A DNA stretch of 64,000 bases. It comes from Patescibacteria group bacterium. GTDB lineage: Bacteria; Patescibacteriota; Patescibacteriia; UBA2591; UBA6264. Numbering within the stretch: position 1 is the stretch's first letter; every line of letters begins with the position of its first letter. The notes beneath the pieces are model-generated. The model made no database searches, had not been told where the DNA came from, and saw only the letters and a list, made by a program, of their open reading frames with translations. Made by a program: the position numbers and the translations under genes. Of the stretch, positions 10,217 to 61,967 are shown piece after piece. Where the stretch lies: positions 22,048 to 86,047 of the forward strand of contig JADHVF010000003.1 of NCBI GenBank assembly GCA_016784145.1, in the 5' to 3' direction.

Positions 10217-10289
<73 letters not shown>

Positions 10290-10342
10290 CAGGGGGTCAG
10301 TCTCCCTTTAGAGAGGTCTAACCCCTGTGTATAATTATACTT

Positions 10343-21485: not shown

Positions 21486-22775
21486 ATGTATATATATTTA
21501 AAAAACATTACTAAACATCTAAACAAGGAAGTTGTTCTTAAGGGGTGGGTTTTTAATTTTCGATCAGCTGGTTCTCTTTATTTTATTCAATTCAGAGACG
21601 GCACAGGAGAAATTCAGGGCATAATATCAAAAAAAGATATTGACAATCAGTCATGGGAAAATTGTAATAAATTAACAATTGAATCGTCTATAAAAATACA
21701 AGGCAAAGTTTATGCTGACAAAAGATCTCCGTCTGGATATGAAATGCAAGTAAATAAAATGGAAATCATCTCTGTGGCCGAAGAATACCCCATCGGAAAA
21801 AAAGCTCATGGTTCTAATTTTCTAATGAATAATAGACATTTATGGGTTAGGTCAAATAAACAAAGAGCTATTTTAAAAATAAGAGATGAAGTCATATTTT
21901 CTATTCGTTCATTTTTTAAAGAACAGGGCTTTATTCTAACTGATTCTCCTGTTTTAACTCCCACTTCATGCGAAGGCACAACTAATCTTTTTAAAACAAA
22001 ATACTTTGACAAAAATGCATTTTTATCTCAAACAGGACAATTGTATATTGAATCACTAATATATTCATTCGGCAAAGTTTATGATTTTGGTCCAACTTTT
22101 AGGGCTGAAAAATCGAAAACACGCCGACATTTAACAGAATTTTGGATGATGGATGCAGAAGCCGCCTTTGTTGAACATCAAGCTAATATGAAAACACAGG
22201 AAGAGTTGATTGCATGGATAATTAAATGGGTGCTTAAAAATTGTTCCAAAGAATTAGCCATAATAGAAAGAGACATTACTTTATTAAAAAAAATAAAAAC
22301 TCCATTTCCTGTTGTCACTTACAAAGAAATGATAACTGAATTACAAAACCAGGGAGTAAAAATAAAAATGGGAGACGATTTTGGTGGAGACCATGAAACA
22401 ATCATATCATCAATGTTTAACTCACCAGTGTTTATTGAAAAATATCCAGCTAAAATCAAGGCATTTTACATGAAGCCTGATTCAATAAATTCAGAATTTG
22501 TTTTAAACAATGATTTAATTGCCCCAGAAGGATATGGAGAAATTATTGGTGGCTCTCAAAGAATTGATGACGTAGACACATTAAAGAAAAAAATAAAAGA
22601 ATTTAAGCTCGACCCAAAACCATTAGAATGGTATATTGACTTAAGAAGATATGGTTCCGTGCCACACTCTGGTTTCGGATTAGGATTAGAGAGAATCATC
22701 ACTTGGATTTGCAAATTATCACATGTTAGAGAGTCTATTCCATTTCCAAGATTGATAAATAGACTAAATCCATAA
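21486..22775 (+). CDS. asnS: asparagine--tRNA ligase (class IIb)
   Basis: OB anticodon-binding N-domain. FRAEKSKTRRHLTEFWMMD (motif 2), GGSQRIDD, GFGLGLERI (motif 3). 429 aa. Confidence 0.6.
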   Translation: MYIYLKNITKHLNKEVVLKGWVFNFRSAGSLYFIQFRDGTGEIQGIISKKDIDNQSWENCNKLTIESSIKIQGKVYADKRSPSGYEMQVNKMEIISVAEEYPIGKKAHGSNFLMNNRHLWVRSNKQRAILKIRDEVIFSIRSFFKEQGFILTDSPVLTPTSCEGTTNLFKTKYFDKNAFLSQTGQLYIESLIYSFGKVYDFGPTFRAEKSKTRRHLTEFWMMDAEAAFVEHQANMKTQEELIAWIIKWVLKNCSKELAIIERDITLLKKIKTPFPVVTYKEMITELQNQGVKIKMGDDFGGDHETIISSMFNSPVFIEKYPAKIKAFYMKPDSINSEFVLNNDLIAPEGYGEIIGGSQRIDDVDTLKKKIKEFKLDPKPLEWYIDLRRYGSVPHSGFGLGLERIITWICKLSHVRESIPFPRLINRLNP

Positions 22776-22784
22776 GAACAACAT

Positions 22785-22813
22785 TTGACACAAACTTATA
22801 ATTATGATATAAT
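22785..22813 (+). promoter_or_regulatory. strong sigma70-like promoter TTGACA-17-TATAAT with extended -10 (TGaTATAAT)
   Basis: Exact consensus hexamers at 22785-22790 and 22808-22813. Confidence 0.55.
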
Positions 22814-22820
22814 ATAAATA

Positions 22821-22880
22821 ATGAAATATATTAAAAAAATAAATAATAATAATGATGATAACCGTTTCCAGCGGACTTGA
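22821..22880 (+). CDS. candidate leaderless leader peptide MKYIKKINNNNDDNRFQRT (Asn/Asp codon run)
   Basis: ATG 7 nt after the -10. 5 Asn and 2 Asp codons. Stop TGA overlaps the 5' arm of a potential antiterminator. Confidence 0.3.
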   Translation: MKYIKKINNNNDDNRFQRT

Positions 22881-22913
22881 TTTGTTATTAAAGCAACACA
22901 AAAACAACCAATG

Positions 22914-22936
22914 TCCGCTAAATAGGCGGATTTTTT
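22914..22936 (+). terminator. intrinsic terminator / attenuator hairpin upstream of tRNA-Asn
   Basis: TCCGC-taaatag-GCGGA + TTTTTT. Alternative pairing AGCGGAC(22869-22875)/GTCCGCT(22913-22919). Confidence 0.5.
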
Positions 22937-22947
22937 AGTATCATTGT

Positions 22948-23020
22948 TCTCCCGTAGTTCAATTGGCAGAACGCTACACTGTTAATGTAGATGTTGCAAG
23001 TTCGAATCTTGCCGGGAGAG
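22948..23020 (+). tRNA. tRNA-Asn (GTT)
   Basis: Canonical cloverleaf, anticodon loop CTGTTAA, T-arm GCAAG-TTCGAAT-CTTGC. Confidence 0.85.
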
Positions 23021-23129
23021 CAATGCTACTAAACACTATCAATGTCAGTCCCTGACAAGTATCTAGTGAAAAGAAATAACAAGAGATTTCTGTTTGAATA
23101 AAAATACATGTATGGTATAATAAAAACAT

Positions 23130-24533
23130 ATGAAAAGAATTTGGGCTAAGCAAGCAACAAAAAAAATTAACTCAACTATTAAACTTTGTGGTTGGATTAA
23201 TACAAAAAGAAGCATGGGAGAAATTGTATTCATTGACCTAAGAGATAGGTCTGGAATAATACAAATTGTTTTTGTTGAAAAAGAACTCGACCAAGAATCA
23301 AGACAAACAATCAAAGAGATTAGAAATGAATTTGTAGTTGAAATAGAAGGAATCGTGAACAAGCGACCTCTTAATCAAATAAATAAAAACATTGTTTGCG
23401 GAGAAATAGAGGTGTTGGCTAAAAAAATAACCATATTAAGCAAAGCAAAAACTCCTGTATTTGAAATTAACAACGAAAAACTTCAAGCAAATGAAGAAAT
23501 GCGCTTAAAATATAGATACTTGGACCTGCGACATGAACGCATGAAAGATAATCTTGTTCTTAGACACAAAATAACAAAAACTATTCGTGATTTTTTAGAT
23601 AAAGAAGATTTTCTAGAAGTTGAAACACCTATTTTAACCAAAGGGACGCCTGAAGGAGCTAGAGAATACATTGTGCCCTCTCGACTTTATCCAGGAGAAT
23701 TTTACGTATTACCACAAGCACCGCAACAATTCAAACAACTCTTAATGGTCGGGGGCATTGAAAAATATTTTCAAATAGCTCGCTGTTTTAGAGACGAAGA
23801 CACTAGAGGAGATAGACAGCCTGAATTTACTCAAATCGATATAGAGATGAGCTTTATTTCACAATCAGACATACTAGATTTAATAGAAAAAATGATTATA
23901 GAAATTATTAAAAAAACATCTCCTCAAAAAAAAATAACTAAAATTCCTTTTCCAAGAATTACTTACAAACAAGCAATGACAAAATATAAGTCAGACAAAC
24001 CTGACATACGACAAAATAAAAATGATAAAGATGAATTAGCTTTTTGTTTTATCACTGACTTTCCTTTGTTCTCACCCACTAATTCTAAAAAAGGACTAAC
24101 CTCAACTCATCACCCTTTTACGTCTCCGATTAAGAAAGATATTAAAACGTTTGTTGATGACCCTCTTAATGCAACTGCCCTCCAGTATGACCTTGCTTGC
24201 AATGGAATGGAGTTAGGAGGCGGTTCAATCAGGATACATAAAAGAGAAACACAAGAAAAAATATTTAAAATATTAAAATTATCAGACAAAGAAATCAAAA
24301 GAAGATTTAATCATCTTTTGAATGCTTTTGAATATGGCGTTCCTCCTCATGGAGGAGTTGCCCTTGGCTTGGATAGAATTGCGATGATGTTGGCTAATGA
24401 AAAAAATATTAGAGAAGTAATTGCTTTTCCAAAAACATCTGATGCTAGAGATTTAATGATGGGAGCCCCAAGTGAAATACCAGCTAAACAAATCAAAGAA
24501 TCAAATATCAAAATTATTAATGAAAAAAAATGA
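23130..24533 (+). CDS. aspS: aspartate--tRNA ligase, bacterial-type catalytic core but lacking the GAD insertion (467 aa)
   Basis: FRDEDTRGDRQPEFTQIDIEMSF, GGGSIRIH, GLDRIAMMLA motifs. Confidence 0.8.
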   Translation: MKRIWAKQATKKINSTIKLCGWINTKRSMGEIVFIDLRDRSGIIQIVFVEKELDQESRQTIKEIRNEFVVEIEGIVNKRPLNQINKNIVCGEIEVLAKKITILSKAKTPVFEINNEKLQANEEMRLKYRYLDLRHERMKDNLVLRHKITKTIRDFLDKEDFLEVETPILTKGTPEGAREYIVPSRLYPGEFYVLPQAPQQFKQLLMVGGIEKYFQIARCFRDEDTRGDRQPEFTQIDIEMSFISQSDILDLIEKMIIEIIKKTSPQKKITKIPFPRITYKQAMTKYKSDKPDIRQNKNDKDELAFCFITDFPLFSPTNSKKGLTSTHHPFTSPIKKDIKTFVDDPLNATALQYDLACNGMELGGGSIRIHKRETQEKIFKILKLSDKEIKRRFNHLLNAFEYGVPPHGGVALGLDRIAMMLANEKNIREVIAFPKTSDARDLMMGAPSEIPAKQIKESNIKIINEKK

Positions 24534-25426
24534 ATATTTTAATTTCTGCTTTTAAAAATATTTTTCGAAATTTTTGGCTATCAATAGCAAGCATAGTAAT
24601 TATTCTCTTAATGCTTTTCTCTATAAGCTTAATCTATACAATAAATACAATCAGCCAAACAATGCTTGAGTCCTTTGAACAAAAAATGGATTTAAGCATT
24701 TACCTCAAGCAAAATATCAATCAAGATACAATTGAATCACTTAAAGCAGAATTAAAAAAACTTGAACAAGTGAAAGAAATTAAATACTTAAACCCAGCTG
24801 AATCGCTTGAAAAATTTAAAGAAAGGCACAAGGCCAACCAGGATATCTTAAATTCGCTTGAAGAACTAGGAGAAAATCCACTAGGAGCAACAATTACTCT
24901 AAAATTTCAAGACCCAACTGCCTATCAATCAGTTTTATCAATAATTAGCAACCCAAATTATGAAAAAATAATTCAAGACCAAGATTTTCATGATTATCAA
25001 AAATTAATAGATACTTTTAATAATTTTAATAGAAAAATATATTTTATTGGGTCATTTATTAGCATATTATTTTTGTTAATATCTTTGCTAGTTATTTTTA
25101 ATTCTATTAAATTAGGAGCTATTCACAAACAAGAAGAAATACAAATAATGAGATTAATGGGAGCCACTTCGTGGCTTATTAAGGCTCCGTTCTTAATAGA
25201 AGGCATTATTTATGCCACATCAGCATGGATACTGAATGTTCTAATTTTGGCTGGAATATCATGGTCAATAGAATCTCGTATTCAAAAATTTTTAGAAATA
25301 GATTTTAATATTTATGAACAATTAGAAACAAATGGAATTAGTTTTCTATTTATTCTGTTAATATATGCTGTTATAATTTCAATAACTGGCAGTAGTTTAG
25401 CTATAAAGAAATATCTAAAATTTTAA
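24530..25426 (+). CDS. FtsX-like ABC-transporter permease (cell division)
   Basis: N-terminal TM helix, large extracytoplasmic loop, three C-terminal TM helices. MRLMGATSWLIKAPFLIEG motif. Confidence 0.6.
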   Translation: MNILISAFKNIFRNFWLSIASIVIILLMLFSISLIYTINTISQTMLESFEQKMDLSIYLKQNINQDTIESLKAELKKLEQVKEIKYLNPAESLEKFKERHKANQDILNSLEELGENPLGATITLKFQDPTAYQSVLSIISNPNYEKIIQDQDFHDYQKLIDTFNNFNRKIYFIGSFISILFLLISLLVIFNSIKLGAIHKQEEIQIMRLMGATSWLIKAPFLIEGIIYATSAWILNVLILAGISWSIESRIQKFLEIDFNIYEQLETNGISFLFILLIYAVIISITGSSLAIKKYLKF

Positions 25427-26481
25427 TGAAAATAAAAGAATTTGATTATTTTCTTCCTAAAAAAAATATTGCTCAATCACCATGTAAGCCTCGAGATAAT
25501 GCGAGGCTTATGATTTTAGATGTAAAGAATAAATCCATTAAACATGACTATTTTTATAACATTCATAAATATTTAAAAGCCACAGATGTATTGGTGGCTA
25601 ACAACACAAAAGTTATTCCAGCTCGTATTTATGGCAAAAAAATAAATAAAAATTCCTTGGAAGGAAAAATAGAAATTTTATTATTAAAACAAATAAAACT
25701 ACCTGCTAGAACGTGCTCTTGGGAAGCAATGGCAAAGGGACGAATCAAGGCAGGCAAGCAAGTTGAATTTGACAAAGAATTAATTGGTATTTTCAATAAA
25801 AAAATAACAAAACAAACCTGGCAGATTAACTTTAACTTAAGCAATGATAATTTTATTAAAAAAATAAATAAAATAGGCCAAACCCCAACCCCTCCATACA
25901 TAAAACAGCTGTCTAATTTAAAAGAATACCAAACAATATATGCGGTTCATCCTGGGTCAGCTGCTGCCCCAACAGCAGGATTCCATTTTACAAAAAAATT
26001 AATAACCAAAATAAAAAATAAAAAAATCTCATTTGAATTTATCACTCTTCACGTTGGCTTAGGAACATTCCAGCCAATAAGAACTAATAATATTAAAGAA
26101 CATAAAATTCATCCTGAATGGGCATCAATAAATATACAGACCAAAACAAAACTAAATAAAGCTAAACAAAATAACCAAAGAATAATAGCAGTCGGCACCA
26201 CCACAACCAGGGCAATAGAATCTTTTGCCAGTCCAGACAAATTATTGCGTTCAAGTAAAAAATGGGTAGATCTTTTTATTGTGCCTGGATATAAATTTAA
26301 ATTTATTGACGGCTTAATCACTAACTTTCATCTACCAAAATCAAGCTTGTTAATGATGGTGTCTGCTTTGGCTGGCCAAAAATTCATACTAAAAGCATAT
26401 AAGCAGGCAATTGTCAAAAATTATAGATTTTATTCATTTGGTGATGCAATGTTTATAAAAAACTTTAATAATATTGATTAA
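25426..26481 (+). CDS. queA: S-adenosylmethionine:tRNA ribosyltransferase-isomerase
   Basis: N-terminal FDYFLPKKNIAQSP...RDNARLMIL and overall length typical of QueA. Confidence 0.7.
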   Translation: MKIKEFDYFLPKKNIAQSPCKPRDNARLMILDVKNKSIKHDYFYNIHKYLKATDVLVANNTKVIPARIYGKKINKNSLEGKIEILLLKQIKLPARTCSWEAMAKGRIKAGKQVEFDKELIGIFNKKITKQTWQINFNLSNDNFIKKINKIGQTPTPPYIKQLSNLKEYQTIYAVHPGSAAAPTAGFHFTKKLITKIKNKKISFEFITLHVGLGTFQPIRTNNIKEHKIHPEWASINIQTKTKLNKAKQNNQRIIAVGTTTTRAIESFASPDKLLRSSKKWVDLFIVPGYKFKFIDGLITNFHLPKSSLLMMVSALAGQKFILKAYKQAIVKNYRFYSFGDAMFIKNFNNID

Positions 26482-37399: not shown

Positions 37400-37430
37400 A
37401 ATGGCCCTGTTTTCAGGGCCATTATTTTTA
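37400..37430 (-). terminator. terminator hairpin directly after the 314-aa ORF stop
   Basis: AATGGCCCTG-ttttc-AGGGCCATT with flanking T/A runs. Confidence 0.45.
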
Positions 37431-38372
37431 CAACTCTACAATTGGACGGAATGAAACATCTGCTCTATTTAAAACTCTTCTTTGACAATCAATATTAGTT
37501 AATCCGCCATAAACAGAACTCCCACCAAATCCTTGGATGCTTTTATTCCCCTTAAACCTTTCTTCATGCCAGACAAAAGTATCTGTATTTTTGTCTTCCC
37601 TTCTGGGCATATATGAATAAAGTTGGGGGATTATATTTGCTTCAATTACTCTTTCTAAGCGGATTTGATTTTTGGCAATGCCTATTTTTTTTGCCAAACG
37701 AGGCCTAATGGATTCATCAAATTCACGAGCAGAAATACCAAACCTTGACATTTTTGGAACATATTTATCATATGGCGTTATTTCGTTCTTATGTCTTAAC
37801 TTAGAAATAATATACCCTAACAAATTGTCATTTTCATAAATTTGTTTATTTTGTCTTCTGCGATTGGGTTTACACCTGGTATCGATTAAAACAACATTAC
37901 CATTGTTCTCCCCAAGCAGCAAGGCATTTGCTTCTATAAATTCATCAAATGACCTTCTTAGTATCTTTGCTTGTTTATTTTGAGAATAAAACCATTTACT
38001 TGGTTTAATTTTCCATCCTGGTAAATCATTATGGATTGACAAATCAATTGCTGGCAAGAAATGTGGCTCTAGTCCTATTCTTCCCCATTTTACAATTTTT
38101 TTAACTCCATAATATTCAATTGTTTCAGCAAACATATCTAATCTTGGATTTGTGCCAAAAAATTTAAAATGATGTCTTCTTTCTGCTTCAACAATCTCAT
38201 CTACCCATTCAGTGCTTCTTGGCTTGACTGAATGTCCTTCAATTATCAACTGCAAGGCATTAAGCACTTTGTCTGGATTTAGTAAATTTTTACGAAATCG
38301 AAACTGCAGTTCAAATAATTTATTGTAGAATTGGACTTTTTGTTTGTCAGCAACAACCTTTTTAGTCGTCAT
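37428..38372 (-). CDS. hypothetical protein (314 aa), monocistronic, no recognised domain
   Basis: GGAGG SD upstream of ATG. Hairpins on both sides. No Walker, nuclease or nucleotidyltransferase motifs recognised. Confidence 0.4.
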   Translation of the reverse strand: MTTKKVVADKQKVQFYNKLFELQFRFRKNLLNPDKVLNALQLIIEGHSVKPRSTEWVDEIVEAERRHHFKFFGTNPRLDMFAETIEYYGVKKIVKWGRIGLEPHFLPAIDLSIHNDLPGWKIKPSKWFYSQNKQAKILRRSFDEFIEANALLLGENNGNVVLIDTRCKPNRRRQNKQIYENDNLLGYIISKLRHKNEITPYDKYVPKMSRFGISAREFDESIRPRLAKKIGIAKNQIRLERVIEANIIPQLYSYMPRREDKNTDTFVWHEERFKGNKSIQGFGGSSVYGGLTNIDCQRRVLNRADVSFRPIVEL

Positions 38373-39473: not shown

Positions 39474-39518
39474 TTAATTTTATTTAAATTATATTTTTTC
39501 GTAAAACCTTCTATCTAC

Positions 39519-39900
39519 TTAATTTTCTACTTAGGTCTACTTAGGGGCAAGGCCTCTAAGTAAAACTCTCAGTGAGGTAGTTGATTATTGATTATTGATT
39601 ACTAATTACTGATTATTGATTACTGATTATTGATTTCTATTCTACTTAGGGGCAAGGCCTCTAAGTAAAGACATAAGTCAAGAAAAGCAAGTATTAACAC
39701 CAAAACCTCATCCTGTTCCTCGACCAAAACCTGACTTAGGGGCAAGGCCTCTAAGTGAGGTAGTTGATTATTGATTATTGATTATTGATTTGTACTCTAC
39801 TTAGGGGCAAGACCTCTAAGTGAGGTAGTTGATTATTGATTACTGATTATTGATTACTACTCTACTTAGGGGCAAGACCTCTAAGTGAGAGTAAGTGAGG
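39519..39900. repeat. cluster C of the GC-rich palindromic repeat (opposite orientation: CTACTTAGGGGCAAGGCCTCTAAGT) with TGATTAn heptads
   Basis: Cores at 39537-39561, 39642-39666, 39735-39758, 39797-39821, 39862-39886. Confidence 0.8.
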
Positions 39901-44353: not shown

Positions 44354-44794
44354 TTAAATCCTCCTTACTAGTCTTTGTTCTTCCTTGCAAGAAACACAAT
44401 GAGTTGTGTGTGGAACATGCTCAAGCCTTTCTATTGGAATTGGTTCACCACAATCAATACAATAGCCATATTTTTCCAAAAATTGCACTAATCTTTCTCT
44501 TGACTGAATTAAATTCTCAAGAAAATCTTCCTGCCTATATATATTATTATACTCCATTTCTGTGTTTTTTGAAATACTAGCAGTTGTACCATCTTCTATT
44601 CCTTCAAACCCATTATTTGATTTATTCAAGGCTAAAACTCTTTTAAGTGCTCCTTTCTTTGCTTTATTCGCTTTATGAATATGTTGATCAATTGCGCTTG
44701 CAATTTTCCACACTCTTTCATTGTTACATTTTTTTAACTTAATCTGCTGTATCATAGTAAAATACATAAGATCTTTAAATGTTTGTTCTGCCAT
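44354..44794 (-). CDS. DksA/TraR-family C4 zinc-finger protein
   Basis: C-terminal CIDCGEPIPIERLEHVPHTTHCVSC. Confidence 0.55.
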   Translation of the reverse strand: MAEQTFKDLMYFTMIQQIKLKKCNNERVWKIASAIDQHIHKANKAKKGALKRVLALNKSNNGFEGIEDGTTASISKNTEMEYNNIYRQEDFLENLIQSRERLVQFLEKYGYCIDCGEPIPIERLEHVPHTTHCVSCKEEQRLVRRI

Positions 44795-45165: not shown

Positions 45166-46323
45166 TTAGATATATTTAATAGTTGTATTTTTTAAAGCTA
45201 ATTTTATCAATTTTTTGATTTTTAATTTTTTAATTGCTTGGTCAACTTCTTTAATATTAGATTTTGTAGCTGGATGTTTTGGTAAAAACCTAGAACAACA
45301 ATCCTGGTCAGGCAAAATTGATATTTCATAAGTATTAATTTGTTTTGCTAAGTTAATTATAGCTTGTTTATTTTTTCCAACCAAAGGCCTAAAAATAAGC
45401 AAATCAATTGCATTGTTTATTACAGCCATGTTAGCAATTGTTTGCGAAGCAACTTGTCCTAAATTTTCTCCTGTTACCAGGGCTATAATTTTCTCTTTGG
45501 TTGCCACTTGCTCTGCTATTCTTAACATAAATATTCTATACAAAACAACTCTTAATTTGCCAGGGCATTTTAAAAAAATTTCTTGTTGAACATCTGCAAA
45601 AGGAACTAAATAAAGTTTTGCCTTGTTCTTTGCTTTAGATAATACTTGAATTACTTTAATTACCTTGTCTACTGACTCCTTGTTCGTATATGGATAAGCA
45701 TGAAAATGAATGAAAATCAACTCTACTCCTCTTTTAGCCATTAAATAAGAGGCCACTGGCGAATCAATGCCACCAGAAATCAACGATAATGCCCTGCCAC
45801 TGACACCAACTGGCAATCCCCCATAACAAATTATTTTTTCAAAATAAATAAAAGCATATTTTTCAACTATTTCAATAAAACATGTTAAGTCAGGGTTTGT
45901 TAAATTGATTTTCTTTTTGTTCATTTTTTTAAGAAGAAAAACAGCTATATTTTTATTTATATCCGGAGAAAGCATTGGAAAATCTTTTTTTGACCTCTGT
46001 GTTAACACTCTAAATGTTTTAAATTTCTTTTTTTCAATTAATTCAAAAATAATTGTTTGAATTGATTCAATATCTTGTTTAGCGCTATAAGCAAAGGCAA
46101 AATAAGCAAGTCCAAAAACATCTTTTAACTTAGTTGTTATTTCAACTATATTTTTTTCTCCTTTAGACGATAATTTAACAATAATTCTCCCCGAGATCCT
46201 TTTAATAAAAACAAAGAAAGCATTATCAATGTTTGTTTGAATATTGGTTACTAATTTTTCTTCAAAAAATCTCCGATTTTTCCCTTTTATTCCAATTTCA
46301 TCATAATGACAAATAATATACAT
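45166..46323 (-). CDS. thiI: tRNA 4-thiouridine synthase ThiI
   Basis: THUMP N-domain, PP-loop LISGGIDSPVASY. Confidence 0.8.
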   Translation of the reverse strand: MYIICHYDEIGIKGKNRRFFEEKLVTNIQTNIDNAFFVFIKRISGRIIVKLSSKGEKNIVEITTKLKDVFGLAYFAFAYSAKQDIESIQTIIFELIEKKKFKTFRVLTQRSKKDFPMLSPDINKNIAVFLLKKMNKKKINLTNPDLTCFIEIVEKYAFIYFEKIICYGGLPVGVSGRALSLISGGIDSPVASYLMAKRGVELIFIHFHAYPYTNKESVDKVIKVIQVLSKAKNKAKLYLVPFADVQQEIFLKCPGKLRVVLYRIFMLRIAEQVATKEKIIALVTGENLGQVASQTIANMAVINNAIDLLIFRPLVGKNKQAIINLAKQINTYEISILPDQDCCSRFLPKHPATKSNIKEVDQAIKKLKIKKLIKLALKNTTIKYI

Positions 46324-49992: not shown

Positions 49993-50433
49993 TTATTCAA
50001 TTTCCTTAATTTTGTTAAGACGACGTTGATGCCGAGAAGCATGACTAAACTCTGTATTAAGCCAAGCTTTAATAATTTTTTTTGCCTTATAAAAACTAAT
50101 ATGGTTATGTCCTAGACATAAAATATTTGTATTATTGTGTTGTCTGGCTCTGCTAGCCATTTTTTTATTAAAAACATTAGCAGCCATAATTCCTTTAACC
50201 TTATTAGCTGTGATACAAACGCCTATGCCTGTATCACAAATTATTATTCCTCTGCTATCTTTATTATTTTTGACCATCCTAGCAACCTTGATGGCAAAAT
50301 CTGGATAATCATCTTGTTTATCAATATCAAAACTACCTAAATCTTCATATTTAACATTTAATTTAACTAAATATTGTTTAATTTTTTCTTTTAAATTAAA
50401 TCCAGCATGGTCAGCCCCAATAAAAATTTTCAT
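49993..50433 (-). CDS. rpiB: ribose-5-phosphate isomerase B
   Basis: MKIFIGADHAGFNLKEKI start, 146 aa. Confidence 0.8.
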   Translation of the reverse strand: MKIFIGADHAGFNLKEKIKQYLVKLNVKYEDLGSFDIDKQDDYPDFAIKVARMVKNNKDSRGIIICDTGIGVCITANKVKGIMAANVFNKKMASRARQHNNTNILCLGHNHISFYKAKKIIKAWLNTEFSHASRHQRRLNKIKEIE

Positions 50434-59963: not shown

Positions 59964-60112
59964 AGATAAATCTCTGAAAAAAAAGTAAAAAATGTTTCTT
60001 TTGTCATATCAACTAAAGCAAATGAAGCGAGGAAAACGAAGAGGCAAGCCAAAAATAAACATTTACTAATACATTGGGGTCAATCCCCTCCAAGTTAGGA
60101 CTGACTTCCTGC

Positions 60113-60238: not shown

Positions 60239-60634
60239 TTAATCACTTTTTATAAATTTTTCAGCAGACATTAGCAAAGAATCGATTTGATTACTGTTGG
60301 TCGGGGAATAACCAAGCATTTCCATTTTTAATAAAACAAACTTTATGCTCACAACGCACGATTCAATATCAGTTCTTGTTAAAAAAGAATCATGTTTTGG
60401 CAAAAAATAATCATTTATTTCTTTGCTCTCAATTTCTTCTTCCCAGCCCAATGTTTTTTGGTGACTAGCAACAAGAATAGCCAGGTCATTTAATGAAGTA
60501 TTCAAATCTGTTACCAGAGTATCTATGGTTAATGTATCTATCATTATTTCTTCTACTGAAACTGTCTGCGAATAAATGCCCGTGAAACAGCCAACAACTA
60601 TTATGCTTACTAAAAACATTCTTAGTGCTCTCAT
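60239..60634 (-). CDS. hypothetical secreted protein (131 aa)
   Basis: Signal peptide MRALRMFLVSIIVVGCFTG. SD AAAGGAGAAC. Putative promoter TTGACA-16-TATATT on minus at about 60700-60732. Confidence 0.4.
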   Translation of the reverse strand: MRALRMFLVSIIVVGCFTGIYSQTVSVEEIMIDTLTIDTLVTDLNTSLNDLAILVASHQKTLGWEEEIESKEINDYFLPKHDSFLTRTDIESCVVSIKFVLLKMEMLGYSPTNSNQIDSLLMSAEKFIKSD

Positions 60635-61157: not shown

Positions 61158-61871
61158 TCATGCCCATTTTTCTGTTTTTATATAATCTTCAGAAATGCCT
61201 AATTCTAACAAACAAGCAATTGTTAACTTTATGAACCTCTTTGGTCCACAAAGAAAAAAATATTTATTTTTAAAAGGAAAACAATACTTTTTAATCATTT
61301 GTTTATCAATTCTCTTTTTTTCTCCTTGCCAAAAAAATGGGACTTTGCTTGTTAAAGAAAAGACAACCTTGAAATTCTTGTTTTTTTTAATAATTGCTTT
61401 TAATTCTTTATAAAAAACAATATTTTGCTTGATTTTATTACTATAAATTAAAAATAATTTATTATTTAATTTTTTTTGAGAACAATATCTAATTATGCTC
61501 ATAAAAGGAGTCGCCCCGATTCCGCCAGCCAGTAAAACAACATTATTCATTCTATTCTCTTCAAAAACAAACTCACCAAAAGGACCAAAAACAACCACCT
61601 TGTCTCCTGTCTTTAGCTTATTAATTTTTTGAGTAAAACTTCCTCCTATTTTGATTACTAGTTCAATATATTCTTTATTTAAAGGAGAAGAACAAATTGA
61701 AAAAGCTCTTTTTTGCCAAATATTACCTAATTTATCATAAAGACCTAGCATAATAAATTGCCCAGGTCTAAAATCAAGAATATCTTTATTTTTTAAAACA
61801 ATTTTTAATTTAACAATATCTGACGTTAGGTTTTTCTTTGATTGAATTTTGCAAGAAAAATCTTGAAACAT
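61158..61871 (-). CDS. FNR-family FAD/NAD(P)-binding oxidoreductase (PyrK/ferredoxin-NADP reductase-like)
   Basis: RPGQFIMLGL, RAFSICS (RxYS), LLAGGIGATP, C-terminal CGP. Confidence 0.6.
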   Translation of the reverse strand: MFQDFSCKIQSKKNLTSDIVKLKIVLKNKDILDFRPGQFIMLGLYDKLGNIWQKRAFSICSSPLNKEYIELVIKIGGSFTQKINKLKTGDKVVVFGPFGEFVFEENRMNNVVLLAGGIGATPFMSIIRYCSQKKLNNKLFLIYSNKIKQNIVFYKELKAIIKKNKNFKVVFSLTSKVPFFWQGEKKRIDKQMIKKYCFPFKNKYFFLCGPKRFIKLTIACLLELGISEDYIKTEKWA

Positions 61872-61967
61872 ATTTTTAAATATTTGAAATTAAAAATTAT
61901 TAATTATTCTGTTCGTAAAAAATATTAATTATTAATTATTGATTATCCTGCTAAGCAAAGCAAAGAG

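What the first reader, a model, noticed from the sequence alone, without database searches (positions are those of the whole stretch)
22785..22940. Candidate leader-peptide attenuator rich in Asn/Asp codons between asnS and tRNA-Asn-aspS
A consensus extended -10 promoter (TTGACA-17-TGaTATAAT) is followed 7 nt later by ATG of a 19-codon ORF MKYIKKINNNNDDNRFQRT (AAT x4, GAT x2, AAC). Its stop codon abuts AGCGGAC (22869-22875). That segment is perfectly complementary to GTCCGCT (22913-22919), which overlaps the 5' arm of a terminator (TCCGC-taaatag-GCGGA-TTTTTT, 22914-22936) located 11 nt before tRNA-Asn(GTT) and 190 nt before aspS. A ribosome reaching the stop would mask the antiterminator arm and favour termination. 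Stalling at Asn/Asp codons would free it and allow read-through. This is the classic trp/his-type attenuation logic applied to Asn/Asp, and the mRNA would be leaderless. The A+T-rich background makes AAT runs common, so this is a hypothesis.
Basis: partly seen in the sequence, partly recalled or inferred. Interest (0 to 1): 0.7.

Follow-up and report, generated by a model that had tools for sequence, protein, structure and literature searches.

The report
Asparagine-sensing attenuator controlling a tRNA gene
A tiny Asn-rich upstream reading frame and a switchable terminator sit directly in front of the tRNA-Asn gene in this and at least six other Patescibacteria lineages, so the cell appears to set tRNA-Asn production by how well its ribosomes read Asn codons, a target for this classic mechanism that I could not find described.

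Summary
A perfect promoter (TTGACA-17-TGaTATAAT) lies 7 nt before the ATG of a 19-codon ORF, MKYIKKINNNNDDNRFQRT. Its stop codon overlaps an antiterminator arm. A terminator follows, and tRNA-Asn(GTT) starts 11 nt after it.

The attenuator reading is supported by comparison. Seven lineages of Patescibacteria, including this window, share the anatomy with largely different sequences. Each has a short ORF with 5-18 Asn codons using mixed AAT/AAC. In each, the antiterminator's 5' arm starts within -9 to +4 nt of the stop codon. A terminator follows, and tRNA-Asn or a copy of its 5' end begins 2-15 nt later. Six of the seven also have a -35/-10 pair 7-10 nt before the ATG.

The constant target is the tRNA-Asn gene, which has no room for a promoter of its own. 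aspS follows only in the window and its nearest relative. Those are the only two leaders with Asp codons.

Constrained folding gives the expected switch in every lineage. Rfam shows no T-box or other family. Literature searches found no leader-peptide attenuator before a tRNA gene, no Asn leader, and none in this phylum.

Verdict: a new variant of ribosome-mediated attenuation. All evidence is computational.

The parts
21486..22775 (+). asnS (asparagine--tRNA ligase, 429 aa). It is the upstream neighbour. No terminator lies between it and the leader, so the attenuator's terminator probably also ends asnS transcripts.
   Evidence: NCBIfam NF003037, 544.8 bits. The terminator scan lists none between 22775 and 22862.
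22785..22813 (+). Promoter: -35 TTGACA (22785-22790), 17-nt spacer, extended -10 TGaTATAAT (22805-22813).
   Evidence: Only 12/12 match in 17-28 kb. TTGACA-16/17-TAnnnT lies 7-10 nt before the leader ATG in L114, L109, L110, L118 and L120.
22821..22880 (+). Leader ORF of 19 codons plus TGA: MKYIKKINNNNDDNRFQRT. It probably sits at the 5' end of a leaderless transcript.
   Evidence: Homologous 19-codon ORFs occur in L114, L091 and L113, and analogous ORFs of 15-29 codons in L109, L110, L118 and L120. Leaderless-type starts are common in the window.
22842..22862 (+). Regulatory codon run: AAT x4, GAT x2, AAC (codons 8-14).
   Evidence: There are 5-18 Asn codons in every lineage. Only two runs of four or more AAY triplets occur in the window.
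22862..22866 (+). Segment 1 (CCGTT). It pairs with AGCGG 22870-22874 to form a small 1:2 hairpin, a possible pause element.
   Evidence: One search lists the hairpin 22862-22874. T22866-A22870 is replaced by C-G in L091 and L114.
22870..22879 (+). Segment 2, the 5' arm of the antiterminator (AGCGGACUUG). It ends inside the stop codon TGA 22878-22880.
   Evidence: Constrained folds. It is masked when a ribosome sits at the stop codon.
22882..22907 (+). Small inner hairpin inside the antiterminator (22882-22886 pairs with 22903-22907).
   Evidence: An inner hairpin at the same place is predicted in all the other lineages.
22909..22919 (+). Segment 3. It is the 3' arm of the antiterminator (22909-22919), and its last 7 nt (GUCCGCU, 22913-22919) are the 5' arm of the terminator.
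   Evidence: All 7 terminator-arm bases are paired in the antiterminator.
22925..22936 (+). Segment 4, the terminator 3' arm (GGCGGAU, 22925-22931), and the T-run (22931-22936).
   Evidence: Terminator scan. The hairpin is -9.8 kcal/mol.
22948..23021 (+). tRNA-Asn (anticodon GTT), the regulated gene.
   Evidence: ARAGORN. Rfam tRNA, 70.6 bits. tRNA-Asn follows the element in all seven lineages.
23094..23121 (+). aspS's own promoter, TTGAAT-16-TGgTATAAT, 8 nt before the aspS ATG.
   Evidence: (10/12 with TG). In L002 and L003 a -10-like box lies within about 10 nt of the aspS start.
23130..24533 (+). aspS (aspartate--tRNA ligase, 467 aa, no insertion domain). It may be an additional read-through target in this genome only.
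   Evidence: NCBIfam NF001750, 657.8 bits in two stretches. No terminator-like site lies between the tRNA and aspS. Asp codons occur in the leader only here and in L114.

Best explanation
This is a ribosome-mediated (leader-peptide) transcription attenuator that senses Asn-tRNA(Asn) and controls transcription of the tRNA-Asn gene itself.

Transcription starts at the consensus promoter, about at the A of ATG 22821, giving a leaderless RNA. A ribosome translates the 19-codon leader while RNA polymerase moves on.

- If Asn-tRNA(Asn) is plentiful, the ribosome reaches the stop codon at 22878-22880. It then covers segment 2 (22870-22879). Segment 3 stays free, the terminator (22913-22931 plus T6) forms, and a transcript of about 116 nt ends at about 22936.
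- If Asn-tRNA(Asn) is scarce, the ribosome stalls in the Asn run (22842-22862). In this genome scarce Asp-tRNA may have the same effect. Segment 2 is then exposed and pairs with segment 3 before segment 4 is made. The terminator cannot form, and the polymerase reads into tRNA-Asn. Here it possibly continues into aspS.

RNase P would then release the tRNA from the leader. The result is a negative feedback loop that holds tRNA-Asn decoding capacity steady.

Shown by computation: the sequence features, their conservation, and the alternative pairings. Inferred: the transcription start, translation of the leader, coupling of ribosome and polymerase, regulated read-through, and RNase P processing.
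For: 1. The anatomy is present as described.

2. The same anatomy lies directly upstream of tRNA-Asn(GTT) in six further Patescibacteria lineages, with largely different sequences:
- L114: MFKQIVQNLNDNNNRLWRT
- L091 and L113: MTILI[S/A]KFSNNNNNRLWRN
- L109: MKQTLRTNNNNNTTA
- L110: MKLICNNNNNNNPPCCG
- L118: MQFTR, then 18 N, then KPPCCE
- L120: MKKFTTIVANNNNNNNPLV

3. The metagenome pattern constrained only a T-run and the tRNA's 5' half. All 5 hits nevertheless carried an Asn-run ORF.

4. The Asn runs mix AAT and AAC. The residue is kept, not a simple repeat. The rest of each peptide is not conserved, except where it overlaps RNA pairing.

5. Folding gives the expected switch in all lineages.
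- With a ribosome at the stop codon, only the terminator forms (-9.8 to -17.2 kcal/mol).
- With a ribosome stalled in the run and the 3' arm not yet transcribed, an antiterminator forms (-12.9 to -17.4 kcal/mol). It pairs 6-10 bases of the terminator's 5' arm.
- The antiterminator's 5' arm starts -9 to +4 nt from the stop codon.
- The run ends 7-13 nt before that arm.

6. Complementarity between the stop-codon window and the terminator's 5' arm exceeds shuffles. In one search, p was 0.001-0.011 in five lineages, with a Fisher combined p of 1.4e-8. In one search, p was 0.08-0.11 in L118 and L120. Three of the five combined lineages (window, L114, L091) are homologous, so the combined value overstates independence.

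7. There is one compensatory change. Window T22866, A22870 and T22919 become C, G and C in L091. The helices are wholly replaced in L109, L110, L118 and L120.

8. The T-run ends 2-15 nt before the tRNA, or in L120 before a 13-nt copy of its 5' end. No promoter-like site lies between the ORF and the tRNA. Other tRNAs in the window have a -10 box 7-15 nt upstream. The tRNA must therefore be transcribed through the terminator.

9. Leaderless-type starts (TGnTATAAT, 6-8 nt, ATG) are common in the window.

10. Eleven distinct phage tRNA-Asn upstream regions had Asn-codon runs of 1. Two further copies of one locus had 3, with no ATG-started ORF visible.
Against: - There are no expression data. The transcription start, leader translation and regulated read-through are all inferred.
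- The window's terminator is modest (-9.8 kcal/mol, 7 pairs of which 2 are G-U).
- In the window, L114 and L120, the equilibrium fold of the free RNA is the antiterminator, not the 1:2-plus-terminator state of the classical model.
- In L091, L110 and L118 the terminator is as stable as or more stable than the antiterminator (L091 -17.2 vs -17.4 kcal/mol). The choice must be kinetic there.
- The L091-type leader has no convincing promoter or Shine-Dalgarno sequence.
- A weak TAGTAT at 22937-22942 could in principle be a -10 for the tRNA.
- Making more tRNA does not relieve a shortage of asparagine itself, so the physiological benefit is an argument, not a result.
- Only seven lineages were sampled. 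The three closest to the window are homologous and not independent.
Confidence: 0.8

Rival explanations
1. Separate units. The promoter, small ORF and terminator form an independent small-protein or small-RNA gene, and the terminator also ends asnS. tRNA-Asn is then transcribed from its own weak promoter, and nothing is regulated.
For: A TAGTAT hexamer at 22937-22942 lies 5 nt before the tRNA. In the window, L114 and L091 the terminator is the first one after asnS.
Against: In L114, L109 and L110 the T-run ends only 2-3 nt before the tRNA. Any -10 or -35 would then lie inside the terminator. The promoter scan finds no site between the ORF and the tRNA. Peptide sequences are not conserved apart from the Asn run and the part that overlaps RNA pairing. 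L109, L110, L118 and L120 are not next to asnS. The link to tRNA-Asn is constant.
Confidence: 0.06
2. General translation sensor. The attenuator works as described, but it reports overall ribosome or translation capacity, or poly-Asn nascent-chain stalling. It does not report Asn-tRNA(Asn) supply specifically.
For: Any slowdown of the lead ribosome before the stop codon would expose segment 2. L118 has 18 Asn codons in a row, which could act as a generally slow stretch.
Against: The run is always Asn and the gene is always tRNA-Asn in all seven lineages. That pairing is the signature of amino-acid-specific attenuators. Run length varies from 5 to 18 and the neighbouring residues are not conserved, which argues against a specific arrest peptide.
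Confidence: 0.07
3. RNA-level sensing without translation. The leader would be a T-box-like or protein-binding riboswitch in which uncharged tRNA-Asn or a protein stabilises the antiterminator.
For: The gene context, aaRS and tRNA genes, is typical of T-box control in Firmicutes (established knowledge). AAC/AAU triplets could pair with the GUU anticodon.
Against: Rfam at E <= 10 gives no T-box or any riboswitch. The only leader-type match is Trp_leader at E = 0.23, on the terminator alone. The leader is only 98-142 nt. Between lineages the only sequence features kept are the in-frame ATG, the Asn run, the stop codon position and the complementarity.
Confidence: 0.04
4. Chance arrangement. A leaky terminator stands in an A+T-rich spacer and the ORF is incidental.
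Against: Only two runs of four or more AAY triplets occur in 128 kb of sequence counting both strands. From base composition, a run of 5 has a probability of about 1e-6 per codon position. The run recurs in frame in seven lineages. The unbiased scan returns almost only these leaders.
Confidence: 0.02

Closest known systems
Classical leader-peptide attenuators of amino-acid biosynthesis operons (E. coli trpL, hisL, leuL, thrL, pheL; Rfam Trp_leader, His_leader and others)
   Same: A short ORF with a run of regulatory codons, segments that pair 1:2, 2:3 and 3:4, an intrinsic terminator, and a stop codon placed so that a terminating ribosome masks segment 2. The logic is the same: stalling gives read-through.
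   Different: The regulated gene is a tRNA gene, not an mRNA for biosynthetic enzymes. The amino acid is Asn, and my searches found no described Asn leader. The transcript is leaderless. The host phylum is Patescibacteria. There is no sequence or Rfam-model similarity beyond the terminator.
pheST attenuator of E. coli (pheM leader peptide), from established knowledge
   Same: A leader-peptide attenuator that controls a component of the translation apparatus for the same amino acid as its regulatory codons.
   Different: The pheM attenuator controls the synthetase genes. Here the constant target is the tRNA. A synthetase (aspS) is at most an optional downstream passenger in two lineages.
Leaderless leader peptides of Deinococcus deserti (14 predicted, before aaRS and amino-acid biosynthesis genes; PMC4007540, read)
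   Same: The leader peptide's AUG lies at the very 5' end of the transcript, so there is no Shine-Dalgarno sequence. The regulatory residues match the downstream gene's amino acid.
   Different: The targets there are protein-coding genes such as cysS and trpEGD. The phylum differs. None is described for Asn or for a tRNA gene.
T-box riboswitches
   Same: They sense the charging state of a specific tRNA and switch between a terminator and an antiterminator. They are typical upstream of aaRS genes.
   Different: A T-box binds the tRNA directly and needs no translation. Its Stem I, specifier loop and T-box sequence are absent here.

Membership tests
Ribosome-mediated (leader-peptide) transcription attenuator | Short ORF in the leader, enriched in codons for one amino acid | tested here: met
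   The ORFs have 15-29 codons with 5-18 Asn codons in all seven lineages. Runs of four or more AAY triplets are rare in the window.
Ribosome-mediated (leader-peptide) transcription attenuator | Intrinsic terminator between the leader ORF and the regulated gene | tested here: met
   for the window. Hairpins of -9.8 to -17.2 kcal/mol followed by a run of five or more U occur in all lineages.
Ribosome-mediated (leader-peptide) transcription attenuator | Antiterminator mutually exclusive with the terminator (2:3 against 3:4) | tested here: met
   The antiterminator pairs 6-10 bases of the terminator's 5' arm. Shuffle p is 0.001-0.011 in five lineages and 0.08-0.11 in two.
Ribosome-mediated (leader-peptide) transcription attenuator | Geometry: a ribosome at the stop codon covers segment 2, and a ribosome stalled at the regulatory codons leaves it free | tested here: met
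   The arm starts -9 to +4 nt from the stop codon, and the run ends 7-13 nt before the arm. This holds under an assumed footprint reaching 12 nt past the first base of the A-site codon.
Ribosome-mediated (leader-peptide) transcription attenuator | A 1:2 pairing that sequesters segment 2 when the leader is not translated | tested here: inconclusive
   It is present in the free-RNA folds of L091, L113, L109, L110 and L118. It is weak or not in the minimum-energy fold in the window, L114 and L120. The window has only a 5-bp CCGTT/AGCGG hairpin.
Ribosome-mediated (leader-peptide) transcription attenuator | Regulated gene functionally tied to the sensed amino acid | tested here: met
   tRNA-Asn(GTT) follows in all seven lineages.
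Ribosome-mediated (leader-peptide) transcription attenuator | The leader is translated, and read-through responds to aminoacyl-tRNA supply | not testable with these tools
   This needs Term-seq or RNA-seq, ribosome profiling, or coupled in vitro assays.
T-box riboswitch (Rfam RF00230) | Stem I with specifier loop, the conserved T-box sequence and an antiterminator bulge that binds the tRNA 3' end | tested here: not met
   No T-box hit even at E <= 10 in 22600-23300, or at gathering score in the whole window.
Existing Rfam leader families (Trp_leader RF00513 and others) | Score at or above the family's gathering threshold | tested here: not met
   Trp_leader scored 19.8 bits against a gathering score of 41 (E = 0.23), aligned over the terminator only. 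No other leader family was reported.

The most novel reading that the evidence does not exclude
In a branch of Patescibacteria that includes Magasanikbacteria-like lineages and this organism's clade, the tRNA-Asn gene is transcribed only through a leaderless Asn-codon attenuator. The level of the tRNA would then be set directly by how fast ribosomes decode its own codons. That would be the first tRNA gene found under ribosome-mediated attenuation, the first Asn leader peptide, and the first attenuator of this class in the candidate phyla radiation. Where aspS lies downstream, the leader has also acquired Asp codons, so one switch would integrate two aminoacyl-tRNA pools.
Probability: 0.7. Interest if true: 0.8.

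Novelty: new variant of a known kind. Interest (0 to 1): 0.72.

Why it matters
Leader-peptide attenuation is a textbook mechanism. As far as I know, and as far as my searches show, it has been described only for protein-coding operons, namely amino-acid biosynthesis, some aaRS genes and resistance genes.

Here the product of the regulated gene is the molecule whose shortage is sensed. That makes the shortest feedback loop one could build for tRNA homeostasis.

- It shows that ultra-small Patescibacteria, whose gene regulation is little studied, use translation-coupled RNA switches.
- It gives a concrete, testable case of gene-specific control of a bacterial tRNA, beyond growth-rate and stringent control.
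- It supplies a compact natural sensor for Asn-tRNA, about 100-140 nt long. Its sensitivity may be tunable, since the run varies from 5 to 18 codons.
- Genome annotation should mark these leaders. Terminators just upstream of tRNA genes should be checked before being treated as the end of the preceding gene.

Tried and rejected
- Rfam at E <= 10 on 22600-23300 and at gathering score on the whole window found only tRNAs. There was no T-box, riboswitch or sRNA family.
- Same-species contigs L081-L088 are 99.97-100% identical to the window, so they carry no informative variation.
- The genome-contig scan with aspS returned only three close relatives (L001-L003). None has tRNA-Asn next to aspS.
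- Several syntenic relatives (L001, L089, L090, L115, L117) have asnS followed by a small ORF or a short spacer and then aspS, with no tRNA and no leader there. L092 and L116 lack asnS nearby. Their tRNA-Asn loci lie elsewhere and could not be fetched. How widespread the element is within the clade therefore remains unknown.
- A tRNA-only pattern proved not to be clade-specific, since it hit phage tRNA-Asn genes without leaders. Those hits served as negative controls.
- L119, a trpS relative, has no tRNA-Asn nearby.
- Equilibrium folding alone does not reproduce the switch in L091 and L110, because their terminators dominate at equilibrium. The switch appears only when the transcript is truncated before the 3' arm, as it would be during transcription.
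- The MAFFT alignment of the window-group leaders (A1) misaligns segment 3 by one base in L114. I therefore did not run the count of structure pairs on it. I relied on per-lineage folds and direct reading instead.
- A scan for analogous leaders for other amino acids in the window and 17 related loci found none that was convincing.

Full report
**Observation.**
- asnS ends at 22775.
- The promoter is TTGACA (22785-22790), a 17-nt spacer, and TGaTATAAT (22805-22813). It is the only 12/12 promoter match between 17 and 28 kb.
- Seven nucleotides after the -10 lies ATG 22821. It opens a 19-codon ORF, MKYIKKINNNNDDNRFQRT, with stop codon TGA at 22878-22880.
It is perfectly complementary to GTCCGCT at 22913-22919.
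- GTCCGCT is also the 5' arm of a terminator-like hairpin (22913-22931) followed by T6 (22931-22936).
- tRNA-Asn(GTT) occupies 22948-23021.
- asnS and aspS were confirmed with NCBIfam.
It supplies the 1:2 element of a classical attenuator.

**Organism and background.**
- The window has about 30% G+C.
- With the standard code, about 89% of it is coding, so TGA is a stop codon.
- Its aspS is identical to a protein named as coming from a 'Patescibacteria group bacterium'.
- Many genes in the window start 6-8 nt after a TGnTATAAT box with no Shine-Dalgarno sequence (3217, 17931, 23130, 45166, 49993, 29288 and others). A leader ORF that starts 7 nt after an extended -10 therefore looks like a normal leaderless gene start for this organism.
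Runs of four or more AAY triplets occur only twice on both strands of the window.

**Relatives.** Contigs of the same species are identical and uninformative. The next nearest aspS proteins are only 69% identical. Even so, the element turned up again in six further lineages.
- L114, the nearest relative, has TTGACA overlapping the asnS stop codon, TGtTAGTTT, 7 nt, and then ATG. The ORF is MFKQIVQNLNDNNNRLWRT*. It is followed by GGCGGACTT ... AAGTCCGCT ... GGCGGA-T6, then 2 nt, tRNA-Asn and aspS.
- L091 and its close variant L113 encode MTILI[S/A]KFSNNNNNRLWRN*. The same segments follow, then tRNA-Asn, a strong terminator and an opposite-strand gene.
- I scanned metagenomes with a pattern that constrained only a T-run and the 5' half of the tRNA. 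The leader was left free. All five hits had an Asn-run ORF. They were the L091 type twice, L109 once, and L110 with its identical copy L112.
- L109 has TTGACA-17-TAGAGT, 8 nt, and MKQTLRTNNNNNTTA*.
- L110 and L112 have TTGACA-17-TAAGGT, 8 nt, and MKLICNNNNNNNPPCCG*.
- Relatives of L110 were found through its trpS. The best named hits are Candidatus Magasanikbacteria. They gave L118 and L120.
- L118 has TTGACA-17-TAGGAT, 8 nt, and an ORF with 18 consecutive Asn codons.
- L120 has TTGACA-17-TATAAT, 10 nt, and MKKFTTIVANNNNNNNPLV*.

**What is conserved.** Across the seven lineages the peptides share nothing except the Asn run and the residues encoded by the RNA-pairing segments. The runs mix AAT and AAC, which is what selection on the encoded residue, or on the decoding tRNA, would give. 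A simple repeat would not show that mix.

**Structure.** I folded each leader under three conditions.
- With a ribosome at the stop codon (masked to 12 nt past the first base of the A-site codon), only the terminator forms, at -9.8 to -17.2 kcal/mol.
- With the transcript truncated before the terminator's 3' arm and a ribosome stalled in the Asn run, an antiterminator of -12.9 to -17.4 kcal/mol forms. It pairs 6-10 bases of the terminator's 5' arm.
- With no ribosome, in L091, L113, L109, L110 and L118 the 5' part of the ORF pairs with segment 2 and the terminator forms. That is the classical 'no translation, terminate' state. In the window, L114 and L120 the free-RNA minimum is the antiterminator instead, so this feature is inconclusive there.

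The geometry is conserved. The antiterminator's 5' arm begins -9 to +4 nt from the stop codon, and the Asn run ends 7-13 nt before that arm.

The 25 nt around the stop codon are more complementary to the terminator's 5' arm than shuffles are. p is 0.001-0.011 in five lineages, with a Fisher combined value of 1.4e-8, and 0.08-0.11 in L118 and L120. Three of those five lineages are homologous, so the combined value overstates independence.

Within the window group, A22870 pairs with T22866 in the 1:2 hairpin and with T22919 in the 2:3 helix. In L091 these three bases are G, C and C. In the distant lineages the helices are entirely different sequences: GCGGGU/ACCCGC, then UGCGGG..GUUU/AAAC..CCUGCA, then GGUGAAUUUAAU/AUUAAAUCCGCC. 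Each has the same three-way relationship.

**What is regulated.** The constant downstream gene is tRNA-Asn.
- The T-run ends 2-15 nt before the tRNA, or in L120 before a 13-nt copy of its 5' end.
- The promoter scan finds nothing between the ORF and the tRNA.
- The other tRNAs of the window have a -10 box 7-15 nt upstream of their mature 5' end.

The tRNA-Asn gene must therefore be transcribed from the leader promoter, through the terminator.

aspS is not the conserved target. It has its own leaderless-type promoter (23094-23121). In L002 and L003 a -10-like box also sits within about 10 nt of the aspS start. aspS follows the tRNA only in the window and in L114.

Those two are also the only leaders with Asp codons, GAT x2 and GAT x1. 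No terminator separates the tRNA from aspS in the window. Read-through into aspS with an added Asp input is therefore plausible here. The two loci are sister lineages, though, so the correlation is weak evidence.

**Mechanism.** I commit to an Asn-tRNA(Asn)-sensing, ribosome-mediated attenuator on a leaderless transcript that gives negative feedback on tRNA-Asn synthesis (confidence 0.8). The alternative pairings, their geometry and their conservation are shown by computation. The start site, leader translation, ribosome-polymerase coupling, regulated read-through and RNase P processing are inferred.

Rivals:
- separate transcription units with a tRNA promoter of its own (0.06)
- a general translation-rate sensor (0.07)
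- translation-independent RNA sensing (0.04)
- chance (0.02)

**Comparison with what is known.** It works like the trp, his and pheST attenuators. It shares the leaderless start with the leader peptides predicted in Deinococcus deserti (PMC4007540). It matches no Rfam family, since Trp_leader reaches only E = 0.23 on the terminator alone, and it has no T-box features.

Eight full-text searches were run, and three of the papers they returned were read. They found no leader-peptide attenuator in front of a tRNA gene, no Asn leader peptide, and no attenuation described in the candidate phyla radiation. The searchable library is incomplete, so this is absence of evidence. I rate the element a new variant of a known kind.

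**Limits.**
- All evidence is computational.
- Only seven lineages were sampled.
- In several syntenic relatives the tRNA-Asn gene lies elsewhere, and I could not fetch it.
- The L091-type promoter is unclear.
- L120 carries an insertion of about 95 nt between the attenuator and the intact tRNA.

Noticed in passing
window 10289-10326 (- strand) and 60074-60112 (+ strand): Related sequences of about 38 nt lie immediately 5' of tRNA-Thr and tRNA-Phe. They read CAGGGGTTAGACCTCTCTAAAGGGAGACTGACCCCCTGT and TTGGGGTCAATCCCCTCCAAGTTAGGACTGACTTCCTGC, and both are followed by GCCGAG. They share GGGGT...GACTGAC..CCTG. The Thr copy folds into a -20.9 kcal/mol hairpin just downstream of a TATAAT box. Function is unknown, and Rfam gives no hit.
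   Followed up: partly
window 25426-26481 (+): queA, which makes queuosine at position 34 of tRNA, lies in the same co-directional cluster: asnS, tRNA-Asn, aspS, ftsX, queA. By established knowledge, queuosine modifies tRNAs with GUN anticodons, including tRNA-Asn and tRNA-Asp, and affects NAU versus NAC decoding. The window's leader uses mostly AAT and GAT, so its read-out could depend on queuosine status. This is speculation.
   Followed up: no
window, many gene starts (e.g. 3217, 12833, 17931, 23130, 29288, 45166-46323 on the - strand, 49993-50433 on the - strand): Many genes start 6-8 nt after a TGnTATAAT-like extended -10 and have no Shine-Dalgarno sequence. This points to widespread leaderless mRNAs in this Patescibacteria genome. 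A few genes (4620, 37428-38372, 44354-44794, 60239-60634) have clear AGGAGG-type sites instead.
   Followed up: partly
L120 6160-6254: The first 13 nt of tRNA-Asn (TTCCGGGATAGTT) occur 2 nt after the attenuator's T-run. An insert of about 95 nt follows, and only then the intact tRNA-Asn, which starts with the same 13 nt. The insert has its own hairpin plus T-run (TCCGCtttgGGCGGA...TTTTT). It looks like an insertion into the tRNA gene with a target duplication, and it may disturb the attenuator-tRNA coupling in that lineage.
   Followed up: no
L118 5192-5360: About 150 nt downstream of tRNA-Asn, its 3' end (CCTGCCCTGGCAGC) is repeated. This suggests a small insertion or integration scar at the tRNA's 3' end.
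   Followed up: no
L118 4977-5030: The Asn run has expanded to 18 codons: 6 mixed AAC/AAT followed by 12 AAT. This looks like triplet-repeat slippage, which could tune attenuator sensitivity or vary between strains.
   Followed up: no
window 23130-24533 (+): AspRS is a bacterial-type enzyme of only 467 aa. It matches the 590-aa NCBIfam profile in two stretches, which indicates that it lacks the bacterial insertion domain. The roughly 460-480-aa form is shared by the top 120 Patescibacteria homologues.
   Followed up: partly
window about 39480-39650 (- strand, upstream of tRNA-Ser) and 61870-61966: Short A+T-rich repeats of the form AATCAATAATCAGTAAT, and repeated 'CCCCTAAGTAGA' units, lie upstream of tRNA-Ser. 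Similar 'AATAATTAATAATTAAT' stretches occur near tRNA-Ala. I did not analyse them.
   Followed up: no
L001 2703-3000; L089 9706-10020; L115 1831-2166; L117 3677-3985: In relatives that lack the tRNA-Asn and leader between asnS and aspS, the gap holds a small ORF of about 100-110 aa with no Pfam hit. It abuts or overlaps the aspS start. In those four loci it occupies the position that the leader and tRNA occupy in the window.
   Followed up: no
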